Assembly: GCF_026571515.1 (NCBI RefSeq) | Contig: NW_026867228.1 | Location: 124,001-188,000, forward strand | DNA from: Ruditapes philippinarum | Taxonomy: Eukaryota | DNA length: 64,000 bases | Direction of reading: 5' to 3' | Shown here: positions 15,001-48,000 of the stretch, piece by piece | Position numbering within the stretch: the stretch's first letter is position 1 | Layout of the letters: the number at the start of each line of letters is the position of its first letter | Program-made: the position numbers

Positions 15001-18000
15001 CTTGCCTGCAGCCCCGGATACCACTAGGTTCTTTTAAAATCATTTTTCACATTGAAATGATTTTCTAATTTTTTACCTCTCAGAATGAATTGTACGAATG
15101 TATGTATTTGGCGTATAAGCAGCTACGCCACAGAATTGAATTATTAACTTACTTTGTTTCCTCCCAGCTTAATGTCACTGGATCTTTTGGTAATTTTTTC
15201 ATATCATTACTTTCTGAATCTCCACCAGCAATTGCCTCCCCATTGCTCACTGGCTTTTCTTCACTGGGTTCACTCCCTTGGTCTTGATCAGGCAGTGAGA
15301 GTTCCTCCCCTTGATTTTTAGCAGCAGTTTTCTCACCATCCTTTATAACTGTAATAAACAAGACTAATATAAATATGTATGATTTTAAGTTTACAAAAAG
15401 GGACATACATGTAAGTAGCAACAAGCACTGTTTGTCTTCCTTGTGCAAGAATCAAAATGATTAATGTTTATTAAGAAGAGCTTAGGCCTAGTAGATAAGG
15501 CGTTAGCCTCTTGACCCAGAAAACCAAGCAGGGTTTATGACCGATTTCGTTTCCTCAAAATTATGGAACCAGTATTGATTATTTCAAAAAATGTGGTCTC
15601 AAGAATGGTTTAAATAAGTTTACCTGTAAGCTTTGTCCTTATTTTGACTGAAGCTAATGGACACTAGTAAATAAATATATACAGACCCTGGTATGACAAC
15701 AAACATGCTCCTACTTTAAAACTTACCAATATAATCAAGCTTTTGTAACTGAGGTAAATTTCTGATCACTGTCATTCTATAGTTGTCCCCCACCGCACAA
15801 GGATTATCTGAGAGCCAAAGGATGCGTAACTTTTCCAAGCCTTTAAGATAGCATATATCTGTTAACTCCTGTATTTTATTATTCCTTATGTACAGTTCTT
15901 GTAGGTTCTCACATACTTCAAACTCTTTCAAAGTAATGATGTCATTTACACTGAAATAAATACAGGAAAATTAAACATGAACATTTTAACAGATAGAAGC
16001 AGTTACCAGAATAATCAAGATATTTAACAGATCTATGTCTGGTTAACTCACAAATAGCTTTCAATAATAGATAAAACTGAATGCATTTGATCAGTTTCAT
16101 TATTAATTACTAAATTTACCAATATCATTTATAAAGGCAGTAAACACACATACATAGATAACTATTTACATCTCTGGTTAACACAATGAAAATTGATCTT
16201 ATAACTTCAAAATCATATTCTTATGAGGACTTAATAACAACAACTGTTAACAAAACAGCCTTTTTTCAATTAAAAAATGAGTATTACCTGACACTACATA
16301 TTTCTAAATTTGGCATTTCTCTTACAATGCTGATATCATCTATCTCTGAACCCCTGAAATATAAAGTTTATAATCACAGTGTGAAATATAAGGATACTCA
16401 GTGTGATCAGGGTCTTTCAAATAGAATGGTCTGGACTTAGACCAATTTTACAACAAAAAGATGTCGCGGCTGAGTCCCTTGATTAAGTTATCTATCGATA
16501 GTGATGTACATCACTGTTCAAAAATCAAATTATAAGATTACTGTTTATTCGATCAAAAATAAGTTGGTTACTCATTTACTGAAAACTAATCCTGGCTACA
16601 TTACATTATCATTTTTTACTTTAAAAAGTAACAATTTTATAAAAATAGAAGCATCGACATGTGTTACATTTTCTAGCAGTCACAGATAATATAAATACCG
16701 TGATATCATAGAACCCATGATATCATATGAATTGAGTATATTTAATTTGCGCCCTGTTCTTGAACACTTACATAAAATGACTGTGCATACACCTGTTCAC
16801 TGTATAGCAAACTATACCGAGTCATACCACGTGTTTAATTGTAGCGAGGATTTACACTGTGCGTTTCCAAACTTCTATTTGAAAGACCCTTGTTTGATTA
16901 AAATTTGACCATCCATGGTTGGAATGTCGGACGTTTCACTCCCACTAAAAATGCTTTACTCCCAGAGTAGTGTACACCTAGACATTTCATTCCAAATATT
17001 TACATGTAATTTTGAGATATTGAATTGGTAAAAAAATAAACAAATTTACTTTCATTAATGCATGTTTGTTAAAATGATAATTTAACTGTCAACTGCCCGG
17101 ACGGATTTATATCCGAATGTTGCGTACTTAACCTTATGCTACTAGAAAAAAGTTATTATTCTGAAATTTATATAAAACACCATCTTTAAACGTACCAGCA
17201 ATTAAGCTTTCGAACACTTTCAAGATCAGGAGCTCGAGTACGAGCCAAAACAATAGGACCTGTCAAACTGTTCAATGTTGCACTGGCACCAGAGTCCTAA
17301 AATAATCATAAATACCCATATAACACAAACTGCCCGAAATATTATCCGAAAAAAATTGCAGACACACCCCCGTATATATACTGTCATATATAGTTTTCAC
17401 ATGGTATTGAACCTTTTCGACAGTGGGTACGATCTAACATTCCAACTGCAAAAGGGAGATAAACACCGGTCTCGATTCATAGAATAAACATTTATCTACA
17501 ATGCTGGTAAACAATAATTTCTCAACTTTTACCGTTCCTACATTTTTTATCGAAATTCTCACTTTTGTTTTTTTCGCAGAAAGCTTCTGTTACCATAAAC
17601 TTGCGGTTTAGTTGTTGTTGTTGTTGTGGTCGATTTGTTACAATACCGTTCAGCTGAACCTACACATTCGCAATTTTAAAAGCAGTTTTCAAAAGGAACA
17701 CTCTATCGTCTTTATATAACCGCTAAATTCTTCTACGTGGCGATATACTATTATAAATAAAATCTTTGATAAGAACATTTAAACGTGCAACTGCACATTA
17801 TGCCTCAGAAATCAATATTTACTTAATTCTTTAGAAATGTTAAACACCTCTTTAATAATGTTTTAATAATGGATTTGTGCAGCTGAATGATGTAGTGCTA
17901 ATTGTGCATTAATGTGTTGTAAAGGTAGCAAAACTGTAAATAAAACAGCATTTTGACTTCCATACAAAATACTTATTCATTATAATTATACTAATTGCCA

Positions 18001-45000: not shown

Positions 45001-48000
45001 TGCCTTTGGCGACATTTGATCATCCATTATACCAATGAGATTTTAACAGTCAAATATAATTTTTACCAATAATCAAAGTGCATATACGCACAACAATGAC
45101 TAATTGCACATGTTTCGTTTATTCTAAAACTTATTTTTCTGAAACACAATTTCAAAGTTGAAAATTCTAGGTGGCGACAGTAACGTATGTTACATTTTAG
45201 GGCATTAATGGTACTTGTAAAAGAAAAATAACAGATAGAAATGTAAAACTGAGAGTGTCCCTATTAGACAAAGTGGCAGCCACCTTTCTAACGACATTTT
45301 GACCTCAAGAAAAACCTTCGTATAAGAGCTACCCAGTGGAACATCAAATGCTGTGTTTTATTGAGAATGAGCGGTTACCTTACGATCGACCTGAGGCCAT
45401 TTTTAGCCTGTCACATGTCCAAATTTTTTTTGGCGATTGACCCCCTTCAAACCCCCGAAACAGAAGGGGGCACATCCTCCTTCTGGCAACCCCCTAATCT
45501 ACAGTTTTGATAGGGGTGGCGCCGAAAAAGGTGATCACTTTTTTAAGAACATTTCCCAAACGAAAAACTGTGTTTGGGGTCTAAATATGGTAATTTTTCA
45601 CTGTTTGAGGCCTCAAAAAAGGAGGGGGTCGAAAAGCCGTCAAACACGTCTATATGAGGTAAAATGTTAAGTTTCCTAAAATGTAGTATTTCGTAATGCG
45701 TTTTTGCCCTACTTAGTCATAATAGCAAAGTTACAGCCAGTTACAGCCAAAAAAATGAAAATTTCAATAATTTGACCTTCAAAGTAAAGGTCATTTATGA
45801 GTGAATGTCAAGGTCTGTCTGGTTATTTTTAAGGGTTATCCTTGAAGATTATTATGTTCAAGTATATATATGAAATACCGCATACGTTGAACAGGATTTA
45901 GCAATGCAATAACTTCCGGTCAAAATGGAAACAACATTGAACAGTTTGACAGGTCCTATTGTTTTGGCTCGTACTCGAGCTCCTGATCTTGAAAGTGTTC
46001 GAAAGCTTAATTGCTGGTACGTTTAAAGATGTTGTTTTATATTTCAGAATAATAAAATTTTCCAAGTATCATAAAATTATTTTAAGTACGCAACATTCGG
46101 ATATAAATCCGTCCGGATAGTTGACAGTTTAATTATCATTTAAACAAACGAACATTAATGAAAGTAGATTTGTTTATTTTTTACCTATTTAATATCTCAA
46201 AATTACATGTATATATTTGGAATGAAATGTCTAGGTGTACAATGCTCTGGGAGTAAAACATTTTTAGTGGGAGTGAAACGTCCGACAATTTTAATATAAC
46301 CAGGGTCTTTCAAATAGAATGGTTTGGAAATGCACGGGTTAAATCCTCGCTTCAATTAAAAATGTCGCGGTATGACTTGGTATAGTTTGCTATATATATA
46401 TACACATTTTATGTAAGTGTTGAAGAACAGGGTGCAAATTAAATATACTCAATCACAGGTGCTTGAAACAAACTTTTTAAAGTTTTATATGGGCTATATA
46501 TACTATAATAAGATATACATATATAGACCGGTTATGTAAAATATTTGATTATGTGACTAGCGCCTGTGTACTCAATTCTTATGATATCACAGTATTTACA
46601 TTTTCTGTGACTGCTAGAAAATGTAAATGTAACACATATCGATGCTTCTATTTTTATTAAATTGTTACTTTTTAAAGTAAAAACTGATAATGTAATGTAG
46701 CCAGGATTAGTTTTCAGTAATTTTTGATCAAATAAACAGAAATCTTATACTTTGATTTTTGAACAGTGGTGTGCTACACCAGATAACTATCGATAGATAC
46801 AAATGTAACTTAATCATGTGACTCAGCTGAGACATCTTCAATGTCGTAAAATTGGTCCAACTCCAGACCATTCTATTTGAAAGACCCTGATCAAACTGAG
46901 TATCTTCATATTCCACACTGTGATTATAAACTTTATATTTCAGGGGTTCAGAGATAGATGATATCAGCATTGTGAGAGAAATGCCAAATTTAGAAATATG
47001 TAGTGTCAGGTAATCAATCTATTCATTTTTTAATGAAAAAAGGCAGTTGTTGCCTTGTGGGTGAAAGTGGTTTTGTCAAACTACCGGTTTAGCGAACTTA
47101 TCTTATGTAATAAAAAGGTTGTGGTTTCGGAGAACTTATTTTATAGTGTTAAAAATATCTATTGTATACTGGGCACGTCAATTATGGTATGTGTTAATTT
47201 GTAAAGAAAACGTTGATACAAAAATAAATATCTTTTAATATATAACATAAGATTGACACACCTCTTCATAAATTAAGTTCCCCGAACCGGTTGTTCGCTG
47301 GAACCACCATAATTCTGCCTTGTTCACAGTTGTTGCTATTAAATCTTAAATAAGTATCTGAAATTAGGAGATAAATTGTCATTGTGTTTGCCTTTAGAAA
47401 TGATATCCGTAAATTTAGTATTTAGCAATGAAACTGATCAAATGCATTTAGTTCTGTCTTTTATTGAAAGCTTTTTAAGAGTATTGTTAATCAGACTTCT
47501 ACATTTTGTATCTTGATTATTCTTGTCACTGTTACAACTATTAAAATGGTTATTAATGCAAATTTTCCTGTATTTCAGTGTTAACGATATCACAACCTTG
47601 AAAGACTTTGAAGCATGTGAGAATCTACAAGAACTGTACATAAGGAATAATAAAATACAGGAGTTAACAGATATATGCTACCTTAAAGGCTTGGAAAAGT
47701 TACGCATCCTTTGGCTCTCAGATAATCCTTGTGCGGTGGGGGACAACTATAGAATGACTGTCATCAGAAATTTACCTCAGTTACAAAAGCTTGATAATGT
47801 TGGTAAGTTTTAAAGTAGGAGCATGTTTGTTGTCATACCAGGGTCTGTATACATTTATTTACTAGTGTCCATTAGTTTCAGTCAAAATAGACCTTCATAA
47901 GGACAAAGCTTACAGATAAACTTTCTTGAGACAACTTCTTTGAACTTATCAATATTGGTGCCATAGTTATGAGGAAACGAAATAGGTCATAAACCCTGCT

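What the first reader, a model, noticed from the sequence alone, without database searches (positions are those of the whole stretch)
15951..47578. Mosaic arm identity suggests arm-to-arm gene conversion
Seen (by eye): CFAP410 intron 2 (15951-16287 vs 47010-47578) aligns at roughly 75-85%. In contrast, ~18500-20700 vs ~39550-41700, ~22800-23640 vs ~35590-36420 and ~26100-26700 vs ~32570-33170 are near-identical non-coding tracts; the spurious ORFs at 26187 and 32876 differ by one residue. A single duplication event should give roughly uniform neutral divergence. Inference: patches have been re-homogenised by conversion, as known for Y-chromosome palindromes, while the C1q domain exon and the CFAP410 genes escaped it.
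Basis: partly seen in the sequence, partly recalled or inferred. Interest (0 to 1): 0.7.

Follow-up and report, generated by a model that had tools for sequence, protein, structure and literature searches.

The report
Patchy arm-to-arm homogenisation in clam palindrome
A 40-kb inverted duplication in a Manila clam contig, carrying two C1q immune genes and two CFAP410 copies, has arms about 93% alike with sharp-edged patches about 98.4% alike, which is best explained by ordinary gene conversion between the arms.

Summary
The window has no N, is 31% G+C and is bivalve DNA (Ruditapes philippinarum by protein identity), so I do not take it for human.

**Structure.** It holds a palindrome:
- left arm 9648-30733
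- right arm 31712-50326
- unique spacer of 978 nt
- non-homologous outer flanks

**Divergence between the arms is strongly non-uniform.**
- Across 67 bins of 200 columns, chi2 = 610 (p = 5e-89).
- For the non-coding inner arm alone, p = 1.4e-11.
- The best HMM has a background state of about 7% and a low state of about 1.6%.
- Five low tracts of 0.26-2.1 kb all lie between 18.6 and 26.7 kb.
- Two stretches are intermediate at 3.5-4.3%.
- Hyper-divergent pockets lie mostly in the CFAP410 part.

**What the low tracts look like.** They are non-coding by every test I could run. Indels are depleted in them as well as substitutions. Their ts/tv matches the background, and their edges are abrupt.

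**Best explanation** (confidence 0.62): a real inverted duplication, followed by non-allelic gene conversion of at least two ages.

- Intron 2 (81%) is a hyper-divergent pocket, not the neutral baseline.
- The extra divergence of the C1q exon comes from a cluster of amino-acid changes.
- The left CFAP410 copy has lost its start codon and is decaying.

Assembly error could not be tested. This is a known kind of process and of modest interest.

The parts
9648..30733 (.). Left arm of the palindrome (21,086 nt)
   Evidence: Inverted self-BLAST and MAFFT arm alignment. Homology begins sharply at about L 9650 / R 50326 and ends at L 30733 / R 31712.
31712..50326 (.). Right arm of the palindrome (18,615 nt)
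30734..31711 (.). Unique spacer (978 nt) between the arms
   Evidence: Arm identity collapses to about 53% here. Alignment shown.
18629..20706 (.). Low-divergence tract A, left copy (pairs with 39564-41613): 31 mismatches in 2049 columns (98.5%)
   Evidence: HMM state 0, mean posterior 0.98. Also found by DP segmentation. Of 4 ORFs of 72 aa or more in the left copy, 2 are broken in the right copy. No Pfam hit.
39564..41613 (.). Low-divergence tract A, right copy
   Evidence: Ungapped pairs I2-I5 are 98-99% complementary.
21440..21695 (.). Low-divergence tract B1 (pairs with 37602-37857): 6 mismatches in 256. This is the weakest call.
   Evidence: HMM state 0, mean posterior 0.74.
21857..22300 (.). 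Low-divergence tract B2 (pairs with 37001-37452): 8 mismatches in 437
   Evidence: HMM mean posterior 0.92. Pair I13 is 98% complementary.
22772..23512 (.). Low-divergence tract C (pairs with 35729-36457): 13 mismatches in 697. It holds the C1q upstream region and coding exon 1.
   Evidence: Exon 1 located. Alignment.
25937..26730 (.). Low-divergence tract D (pairs with 32538-33325): 10 mismatches in 787, including 1 mismatch in 460 columns at 26087-26546
   Evidence: Ends at the left-only 3.2-kb insertion.
17642..18644 (.). Intermediate stretch (pairs with 41598-42637): 42 mismatches in 983 (4.3%)
   Evidence: Differs from both the background (p = 4e-4) and the low state (p = 3e-8).
29937..30698 (.). 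Central satellite array of about 135-nt units, left copy (pairs with 31747-32501): 26 mismatches in 747 (3.5%)
23433..24452 (+). Left C1q-domain gene. Coding exons 23433-23459, 23695-23746 and 24052-24452.
   Evidence: The parts of P0004 that tblastn reported, residues 10-26 and 27-158, match at 100%. Residues 1-9 were located. Pfam C1q E = 1.7e-18.
34812..35808 (-). Right C1q-domain gene. Coding exons 35808-35782, 35559-35508 and 35212-34812. Each exon is open and the splice sites are kept.
   Evidence: Pfam C1q E = 1.4e-16.
10034..17284 (-). Left CFAP410 copy. Coding segments 17284-17195, 16352-16290, 15955-15728, 15352-15155, 14464-14378 and 10135-10034. No ATG: homology to the right copy ends at 17281, and an in-frame TAG lies 5 codons upstream.
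45925..49936 (+). Right CFAP410 copy, with ATG. Coding segments 45925-46017, 46945-47007, 47574-47801, 48172-48366, 49159-49251 and 49814-49936.
   Evidence: P0001 agrees with this copy at 15 of 15 sites where the two copies differ in exons 1-5.
17282..17640 (.). Non-homologous block in the left arm (359 nt), opposite 42639-45931 (3.3 kb) in the right arm. It separates the CFAP410 part from the inner arm.
42639..45931 (.). Right-only 3.3-kb block holding the region upstream of the right CFAP410 start codon
10166..14019 (.). Left-only insertion of about 3.8 kb in CFAP410 intron 5. It carries a copy of a repeat also found at 131-1235 and 7930-9115.
26747..29933 (.). Left-only insertion of about 3.2 kb inside the satellite, with internal tandem repeats of 202-223 nt
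38097..39025 (.). Right-only 929-nt insertion, lying in background-state DNA
47045..47314 (.). Right-only 270-nt insertion in CFAP410 intron 2

Best explanation
This is a real inverted segmental duplication (a palindrome) of a head-to-head CFAP410-C1q gene pair in a venerid clam.

After one duplication the arms diverged to about 7% in well-aligned non-coding DNA. Transposon-like insertions then accumulated in one arm or the other.

Later, non-allelic (arm-to-arm) gene conversion copied stretches of 0.26-2.1 kb from one arm onto the other. It did so at two or more times. Five tracts now differ by about 1.6%, and two stretches differ by 3.5-4.3%.

All converted DNA lies in the inner 13 kb, which comprises the intergenic region, the C1q upstream region with exon 1, the C1q downstream region and the central satellite.

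The CFAP410 part lies beyond a 3.3-kb versus 0.36-kb heterology and shows no low tract. The C1q-domain exon lies in unconverted background and carries an extra cluster of amino-acid replacements.

Shown: the palindrome, the mosaic, the gene anatomy, and the loss of the left CFAP410 start codon. Inferred: that conversion made the mosaic, that heterology or selection limits it, and the relative ages.
For: **1. Palindrome with sharp ends.** The outer boundary is at L ~9650 / R ~50326 and the inner boundary at L 30733 / R 31712, the same homologous position in both arms. The spacer is 978 nt. Among the inverted HSPs of at least 150 nt listed (BLAST cut-off E <= 1e-10), none joins flank 1-9647 to flank 50327-64000.

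**2. Non-uniform divergence.** p = 5e-89 for the whole arm and p = 1.4e-11 for the non-coding inner arm. BIC prefers a 3-state HMM: 5634, against 6060 for K=1, 5669 for K=2 and 5693 for K=4. Its states are 1.8%, 6.9% and 31%.

**3. Discrete levels.** The five low tracts are mutually homogeneous (chi2 = 1.99, p = 0.74). So are seven background segments drawn from both the CFAP410 part and the inner arm (chi2 = 3.2, p = 0.78).

**4. Abrupt edges.** Examples are 3 vs 24, 5 vs 27, 34 vs 8 and 2 vs 24 mismatches in the 300 columns on either side of a boundary. These tests are post hoc because the HMM chose the boundaries.

**5. Indels fall too.** Low tracts have 4.0 indel events per kb against 11.3 in the background. 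ts/tv is unchanged at 0.92 vs 0.97, so the residual differences look like ordinary new mutations.

**6. No sign that the tracts are functional.**
- No Pfam family reached its curated cut-off. The only matches were weak ones of E 0.03-0.05 to PAP2 on the two homologous copies of one ORF.
- There was no Rfam or tRNA hit.
- In tract A, 2 of 4 left-arm ORFs are broken in the right arm. The mismatches in the other two change residues (2 and 3 amino-acid changes from 4 nt each).

**7. Large indels lie outside the tracts.** None of the five large insertions or the replaced block lies inside a low tract. Tract D ends at one of them.

**8. More than one age.** Intermediate stretches of 4.3% and 3.5% differ significantly from both other levels.
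Against: - No outgroup, second assembly, reads or population data could be consulted. Conversion is inferred from two sequences only.
- There is no GC enrichment in the tracts (G+C 0.33 vs 0.32), although GC bias accompanies conversion in mammalian palindromes (abstract start of PMC8981503).
- The two-level picture is partly a product of the HMM, which puts hyper-divergent pockets into a third state. With those pockets left in, non-coding divergence is 13.2% in the CFAP410 part and 4.2% in the inner arm.
- CFAP410 synonymous divergence (about 20 of 141 sites, 14%) exceeds the 7% background (p = 0.003). So the true neutral level may be higher, and the history more layered, than one duplication plus two rounds of conversion.
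- Tract C covers the C1q upstream region and exon 1, where purifying selection could also hold identity high.
- The HMM was fitted with only 40 EM iterations and 2 starts.
Confidence: 0.62

Rival explanations
1. Assembly artefact. There are two versions. In one, the two arms are the two haplotypes of a single-copy locus, wrongly joined head to head, and the mosaic is ordinary variation in allelic coalescence time. In the other, consensus or polishing mixed reads of the two arms and homogenised patches.
For: Bivalve genomes are highly heterozygous (my own knowledge). False duplications from unmerged haplotypes are documented in assemblies (PMC9516828, abstract start only). The protein search reports a longest contig of only 188,898 nt for the matching NCBI proteins. 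The low-tract divergence of 1.6% is in the range I would expect for alleles in such species (recalled, not measured here).
Against: - There is no N in the window.
- Both outer flanks (9.6 kb and 13.7 kb) are unique. No listed inverted HSP joins them, so a haplotig would need two exact misjoins.
- The two arms end at the same homologous base next to a unique 978-nt spacer.
- A fold-back chimeric read would give identical arms. These differ by 7% and by five large insertions plus a replaced block.
- The left CFAP410 copy lacks its start codon and evolves faster.
- Reads differing at about 7% of sites should not cross-map enough to create 2-kb tracts that still differ at 1.6% with a normal ts/tv (inference).
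Confidence: 0.13
2. Purifying selection. The near-identical tracts are functional non-coding DNA, such as promoters, enhancers, UTRs or unannotated transcripts of the C1q genes. They have simply changed more slowly since the duplication.
For: Tract C holds the C1q upstream region and the signal-peptide exon. Tract A is somewhat richer in G+C, at up to 0.51 per 100 nt. Indels are depleted as well.
Against: - Together the tracts cover about 4.25 kb at one common divergence level with abrupt edges.
- Tract A lies 2.7 kb or more from either gene and has indels of 8-13 nt and broken ORFs.
- There are no Pfam, Rfam or tRNA hits.
- Bona fide coding exons in the same arms are less conserved (89.9-98.4% nt) than these tracts.
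Confidence: 0.1
3. Staged origin or regional mutation-rate differences. Either the inner and outer parts were duplicated at different times, or local mutability and alignment noise create the mosaic without any exchange between arms.
For: With the hyper-divergent pockets left in, the CFAP410 part is more diverged than the inner arm (13.2% vs 4.2% non-coding). CFAP410 synonymous divergence is about 14%. The pockets sit next to insertions and low-complexity DNA.
Against: The pattern alternates low, high, low, high, low within 8 kb. Staged duplication would therefore need several nested events with collinear ends. G+C and ts/tv are the same in low and background DNA. Well-aligned background is homogeneous across the outer and inner parts.
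Confidence: 0.08

Closest known systems
Sex-chromosome palindromes with arm-to-arm gene conversion (human Y P1-P8; primate and mouse X palindromes)
   Same: Large inverted repeat around a short unique spacer, carrying duplicated genes, with evidence that sequence is exchanged between arms. Multi-kilobase tracts are reported there too. My sources are abstract starts only, listed: 10.1101/800185, PMC8600007, PMC3723533 and PMC8981503.
   Different: - Those arms are more than 99% to more than 99.9% identical along their whole length. Here the overall identity is 93.2%, and only about 4.25 kb of about 13.5 kb of aligned DNA is in the low state.
- No GC bias is seen here.
- The chromosomal location, sex linkage and expression pattern of this locus are unknown.
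- One gene copy here is decaying rather than being preserved.
Non-allelic (interparalogue) gene conversion between segmental duplicates in general
   Same: Short tracts (10^2-10^3 nt) of raised identity with sharp borders between diverged paralogues on one DNA molecule. Large heterologies lie outside the tracts. This comparison rests on my general knowledge; no paper was read for it.
   Different: Nothing in kind. Only the organism and locus are new. Direction, rate and donor arm could not be determined.
Tandem expansion of bivalve C1q-domain genes with episodic positive selection (PMC6835236, passages read)
   Same: The genes here are young C1qDC paralogues lying side by side. Replacement changes concentrate in a limited part of the globular head while the rest is conserved: 109 of 132 residues are identical, and pN is 0.22 vs pS 0.065 in codons 61-94.
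   Different: That paper describes tandem duplication and unequal crossing-over in the oyster. The word 'conversion' occurs 0 times in its main text. Here the copies are inverted, not tandem, and their non-coding surroundings are partly re-homogenised. My selection signal rests on one pair, with 17.5 replacement vs 1.5 silent changes, and is not a site-model test.
False haplotypic duplications in assemblies (PMC9516828, abstract start)
   Same: Two similar copies of one locus adjacent in an assembly of a heterozygous animal.
   Different: There is no gap, both sides have unique flanks, the inner ends coincide around a unique spacer, and the gene content is asymmetric. Read depth could not be tested.

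Membership tests
Palindrome maintained by arm-to-arm conversion (Y/X-chromosome type) | Large inverted repeat with a short unique spacer | tested here: met
   Arms of 21.1 and 18.6 kb with a 978-nt spacer.
Palindrome maintained by arm-to-arm conversion (Y/X-chromosome type) | Arm-to-arm identity above 99% along the arms | tested here: not met
   93.2% over 13,461 reliable columns. Only patches reach 98-99.8%.
Palindrome maintained by arm-to-arm conversion (Y/X-chromosome type) | GC-biased outcome of conversion | tested here: inconclusive
   G+C is 0.329/0.333 in low tracts and 0.321/0.326 in background. Changes could not be polarised without an outgroup.
Palindrome maintained by arm-to-arm conversion (Y/X-chromosome type) | Arms more alike within a species than orthologous arms are between species (concerted evolution) | not testable with these tools
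Non-allelic gene conversion between paralogues | Diverged paralogous copies on one DNA molecule | tested here: met
   Both arms lie in one gap-free window with unique flanks. This is conditional on the assembly being right.
Non-allelic gene conversion between paralogues | Tracts of significantly higher identity than their flanks, with discrete borders | tested here: met
Non-allelic gene conversion between paralogues | Phylogenetic incongruence between tract and flank when a third sequence is added | not testable with these tools
   No third nucleotide copy exists in the window, and no outgroup genome was available.
C1q-domain-containing (C1qDC) protein gene | C1q globular domain above the Pfam gathering score | tested here: met
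   PF00386 scores 67.5 bits (left) and 61.3 bits (right) against a cut-off of 23.7. PDB C1q, cerebellin and adiponectin chains are hit at E down to 4e-16.
C1qDC protein gene | Complete open reading frame with N-terminal secretion signal | tested here: inconclusive
   Each of the three coding exons is open in both copies and the splice sites are kept. The hydrophobic N-terminus was judged by eye only.
CFAP410 | N-terminal LRR (LRR_9/LRR_4) and collinear match to annotated CFAP410 proteins over all exons | tested here: met
   Pfam LRR_4 E = 2e-13 and 4e-15. Six collinear tblastn segments per copy against P0001-P0003.
CFAP410 | Intact start codon (functional copy) | tested here: not met
   Not met for the left copy: no ATG, with an in-frame TAG 5 codons upstream. 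Met for the right copy.
False haplotypic duplication (assembly artefact) | Copies abut a gap or contig end, and homology runs on into the flank | tested here: not met
   No N. The flanks are not homologous.
False haplotypic duplication (assembly artefact) | Half read depth on each copy | not testable with these tools
   No reads were available.

The most novel reading that the evidence does not exclude
Conversion in this invertebrate palindrome may be filtered by selection. Repeated arm-to-arm exchange would keep the intergenic, upstream and signal-peptide parts of an immune C1q gene pair alike. Diversifying selection on the recognition head would prevent conversions across that exon from becoming fixed. 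Selection against copying a decaying CFAP410 copy onto the working one would do the same in the outer arm. If so, inverted duplication plus partial conversion would be a way for bivalves to hold duplicated pattern-recognition genes under common control while their binding surfaces diverge.
Probability: 0.18. Interest if true: 0.5.

Novelty: new member of a known kind. Interest (0 to 1): 0.3.

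Why it matters
Gene conversion between inverted duplicates is textbook biology, so this finding does not change any concept.

It has some local value. I found no paper on gene conversion in bivalve C1q gene families. One search for the terms C1q, bivalve and gene conversion gave 4 papers, none with all three terms in its title or abstract. The main oyster study of C1qDC expansion does not use the word 'conversion' in its main text.

If the locus is real, it is a compact case in which duplication age, conversion age, transposon insertion, pseudogene decay and head-domain diversification can all be read from one 40-kb stretch.

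It is also a caution for gene-family dating in bivalves. Identity between paralogues here varies from 81% to 99.8% within one duplicate pair.

Tried and rejected
- **Greedy binary segmentation** found only 4 segments and missed the alternating tracts. I replaced it with exact dynamic-programming segmentation and HMMs.
- **The 4-state HMM** was rejected by BIC (5693 vs 5634). Its picture of more high-divergence patches in the CFAP410 part is reported as a caveat.
- **Pfam scans** of 41 ORFs and 24 ORFs gave only C1q and LRR above the curated cut-offs. No transposase or reverse-transcriptase domain named the large insertions.
- **Rfam at gathering threshold and ARAGORN** over the whole window gave 0 hits.
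- **The GC-bias test** showed no difference.
So I could not see whether NCBI annotates both CFAP410 copies, or the right C1q copy, as proteins.
- **Literature searches:**
  - 'C1q, bivalve, gene conversion' gave 4 papers, seen as a listing only.
  - 'inverted duplication, gene conversion, mollusc' gave 1 irrelevant paper.
- **Not used:**
  - The third protein search, the structure tools and the complex tool would not bear on the question.
- **Spliced models:** they were searched and analysed exon by exon only. The joined coding sequences were never built, searched or folded, and the dN/dS counts were summed per exon.

Full report
**Source and scope**

The window is 64,000 nt, has no N and is 31% G+C. 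Two exon-wise protein searches place it in the Manila clam.
- The left C1q-domain exon is 100% identical to an NCBI Ruditapes philippinarum protein (P0004).
- The right CFAP410 copy agrees with an NCBI R. philippinarum CFAP410-like protein (P0001) at 15 of 15 sites where the two copies differ.
- The search reports a longest contig of 188,898 nt for both proteins.

Spliced gene models were searched and analysed exon by exon. The joined coding sequences were never built or searched.

**Anatomy**

Inverted self-comparison shows one large palindrome.
- The left arm is 9648-30733 (21,086 nt) and the right arm is 31712-50326 (18,615 nt).
- A 978-nt unique spacer (30734-31711) separates them.
- Both boundaries are sharp, and the two arms end at the same homologous base next to the spacer.
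- Among the inverted HSPs of at least 150 nt listed (BLAST cut-off E <= 1e-10), none joins flank 1-9647 to flank 50327-64000.

Each arm carries a head-to-head gene pair.
- The outer gene is CFAP410, with six coding segments. It is on the minus strand at 17284-10034 in the left arm and on the plus strand at 45925-49936 in the right arm.
- The inner gene is a three-exon C1q-domain gene. It is at 23433-24452 (plus) in the left arm and 35808-34812 (minus) in the right arm.
- Next to the spacer, each arm ends in a satellite of units of about 135 nt.

The arms differ by large insertions and one replaced block.
- Left-only: about 3.8 kb at 10166-14019 and about 3.2 kb at 26747-29933.
- Right-only: 929 nt at 38097-39025 and 270 nt at 47045-47314.
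- Replaced block: 359 nt at 17282-17640 against 3.3 kb at 42639-45931.
- The 3.8-kb insertion carries a copy of a repeat also present at 131-1235 and 7930-9115. This fits a transposon arriving after the duplication.

**Check of the observation**

| Region | Identity |
|---|---|
| CFAP410 intron 2 | 81.3% (231 of 284) |
| 18500-20700 | 98.2% (2133 of 2172) |
| 22800-23640 | 97.3% (803 of 825) |
| 26100-26700 | 99.2% (596 of 601) |
| C1q-domain exon | 89.9% (356 of 396) |

The two 74-aa ORFs differ by one residue. The ungapped pairs agree independently.

I masked columns whose 41-column neighbourhood exceeded 40% mismatch. This left 13,461 columns with 914 mismatches, or 93.2% identity.

**Is the mosaic more than chance?**

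Yes.
- Mismatch counts in 67 bins of 200 columns have variance 117 against a binomial 12.6 (chi2 = 610, p = 5e-89).
- For the non-coding inner arm alone, 92 bins of 100 columns give chi2 = 211.5 (p = 1.4e-11). The longest identical run (308 nt) is matched in about 3 of 5001 permutations.
- Exact segmentation and Bernoulli HMMs on about 12,000 non-coding columns agree.
- BIC prefers three states: 5634, against 6060, 5669 and 5693 for one, two and four states. The state mismatch rates are 1.8%, 6.9% and 31%. The 31% state collects misaligned or replaced DNA.
- The HMM fit used only 40 EM iterations and two starts, so tract edges are good to tens of bases at best.

**The tracts**

The low-state tracts, in left-arm coordinates:

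| Tract | Coordinates | Mismatches |
|---|---|---|
| A | 18629-20706 | 31 of 2049 |
| B1 | 21440-21695 | 6 of 256 (weakest call) |
| B2 | 21857-22300 | 8 of 437 |
| C | 22772-23512 | 13 of 697 |
| D | 25937-26730 | 10 of 787 |

- The five tracts are mutually homogeneous (chi2 = 1.99, p = 0.74).
- Seven background segments of 360 columns or more, four from CFAP410 introns and flank and three from the inner arm, are also homogeneous (chi2 = 3.2, p = 0.78; pooled 7.1%).
- Pooled, the low tracts have 69 mismatches in 4254 columns (1.62%) and 4.0 indel events per kb.
- The background has 491 mismatches in 6976 columns (7.04%) and 11.3 indel events per kb.
- ts/tv is 0.92 against 0.97, and G+C is 0.33 against 0.32.
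- Edges are abrupt: 3 vs 24 mismatches in the 300 columns either side of 20706, 34 vs 8 at 22772, and 2 vs 24 at 23512. These tests are post hoc.
- Two stretches are intermediate and differ significantly from both levels. They are 17642-18644 (42 of 983, 4.3%) and the satellite at 29937-30698 (26 of 747, 3.5%).

**Are the tracts functional DNA?**

I found no sign of it.
- No Pfam family reached its curated cut-off for the ORFs inside them. The only matches were weak ones of E 0.03-0.05 to PAP2 on the two homologous copies of one ORF.
- Rfam and tRNA searches found nothing.
- In tract A, two of the four left-arm ORFs of 72 aa or more are broken in the right arm, one by a frameshift and one by a stop. 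The mismatches in the other two change residues.
- Tract C is the exception. It holds the C1q upstream region and the first coding exon (MRSFILPTT against MRTFILPTT), so constraint could contribute there.

**The genes**

*CFAP410*
- The right copy starts with ATG. In the left copy, homology stops at 17281, a few bases into the coding sequence. There is no ATG there, and an in-frame TAG lies five codons upstream.
- Over exons 1-5, per-exon counts added by hand give S = 141.4, N = 521.6, sd = 20.2 and nd = 17.8. That is pS 0.143 and pN 0.034.
- Replacements fall mostly on the left lineage. Where the copies differ and the outgroup matches one of them, Mercenaria (P0002) matches the right copy at 8 of 9 sites (4 further sites match neither). 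Mactra (P0003) matches it at 7 of 9 (6 match neither).
- The left copy is therefore probably a decaying, 5'-truncated duplicate, unless it uses another first exon.

*C1q*
- Both copies are open in each exon.
- In the domain exon, 109 of 132 residues are identical and omega is about 0.92 (S = 88.7, N = 307.3, sd = 9.5, nd = 30.5).
- Codons 61-94 carry 17.5 replacement changes against 1.5 silent ones (pN 0.222, pS 0.065).
- The exon is more diverged than the background (40 of 396 against 6.9%, p = 0.01).
- This fits the localised episodic positive selection reported for oyster C1qDC paralogues (PMC6835236, passages read). One pair of sequences is not a site-model test, though.
- A third sequence of unnamed origin (P0005) is 94% identical to the right copy and 81% to the left. 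It differs from both in the same patch.

**Interpretation**

The simplest history has four steps.
1. One inverted duplication.
2. Divergence to about 7%.
3. Insertions into single arms.
4. Arm-to-arm gene conversion of at least two ages, confined to the inner 13 kb.

If divergence is clock-like, the youngest class dates to roughly a quarter of the age of the duplication (1.6 / 7.0).

The youngest tracts share one divergence level across 8 kb. This could mean one long event with patchy mismatch repair, or several events close in time. With counts of 6-31 per tract, the data cannot tell these apart.

Three points are inference only:
- conversion may stop at the 3.3-kb versus 0.36-kb heterology;
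- conversions across the C1q head may be removed by diversifying selection;
- conversions from the decaying CFAP410 copy onto the working one may be selected against.

**What speaks against this reading**

- Only two sequences were compared.
- No GC bias is seen.
- With the hyper-divergent pockets left in, non-coding divergence is 13.2% in the CFAP410 part and 4.2% in the inner arm.
- CFAP410 synonymous divergence of about 14% exceeds the 7% background (p = 0.003).
- The real neutral level may therefore be higher and the layering deeper than I describe.

**Rivals**

*Haplotype misjoin.* This would need two exact misjoins, coincident inner ends around a unique spacer, and an allele without a start codon. 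I rate it unlikely, but it cannot be tested without reads (PMC9516828, abstract start only).

*Constraint.* It fits tract C but fits tract A poorly.

*Staged duplication or rate variation.* Neither fits an alternating pattern with equal G+C and equal ts/tv.

**Comparison with known systems**

This works like non-allelic gene conversion between inverted duplicates. It has the architecture of the sex-chromosome palindromes (papers seen as listing and abstract starts). It fails their defining feature of more than 99% identity along the whole arm. I file it as a new member of a known kind, of modest interest.

**What stayed unchecked**

- Other assemblies, outgroup genomes, reads and population data.
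- Supplementary files of the papers, which were closed and might hold C1qDC locus tables.

Noticed in passing
window 17195-17300 (left) vs 45925-46017 (right): The left CFAP410 copy has lost its start codon. Arm homology ends at 17281, a few bases into the coding sequence, and an in-frame TAG lies 5 codons upstream. Most amino-acid differences between the copies lie on the left lineage.
   Followed up: yes
window 24232-24333 (left) and 34931-35032 (right), codons 61-94 of the C1q-domain exon: A cluster of replacement changes sits in the C1q head (17.5 non-synonymous vs 1.5 synonymous). A third sequence, P0005, differs from both copies in the same patch.
   Followed up: partly
window 26650-26850, 29772-30744 and 31712-32702: A satellite of units of about 135 nt flanks the spacer in both arms. 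Units within an arm are only 62-76% alike, while the two arms are about 96% alike in register. In the left arm the array is split by the 3.2-kb insertion.
   Followed up: partly
window 28002-29134: The left-only 3.2-kb insertion carries its own tandem repeats of 202-223 nt (about 2 copies each, 76-78% matches). No Pfam domain names the element.
   Followed up: no
window 131-1235, 7930-9115 and 12520-12879: A 1.2-kb direct repeat (78% identity) lies in the left flank. A partial inverted copy lies inside the left-only insertion in CFAP410 intron 5. This is probably a transposon family.
   Followed up: no
window 55154-55940 and 56125-56773: Two further tandem-repeat arrays lie in the right flank, with self-matches offset by about 166 nt and about 174 nt at 71-88% identity.
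   Followed up: no
window 17793-18122, 42266-42450, 48388-48778 and 60520-60738: A dispersed repeat (64-71% identity) is present in both arms, in intron 4 of the right CFAP410 copy only, and in the right flank. The intron-4 copy explains the poor alignment of that intron (72.8%).
   Followed up: no
window 26253-26316 and 32953-33016: A 32-nt unit repeated twice is shared by both arms inside low-divergence tract D.
   Followed up: no
window 15972-16269 vs 47034-47561: CFAP410 intron 2 holds pockets of 73-80% identity, well below the 93% background. They lie next to a 270-nt right-only insertion. The cause is unknown and could be local hypermutability, misalignment or input from a third copy.
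   Followed up: partly
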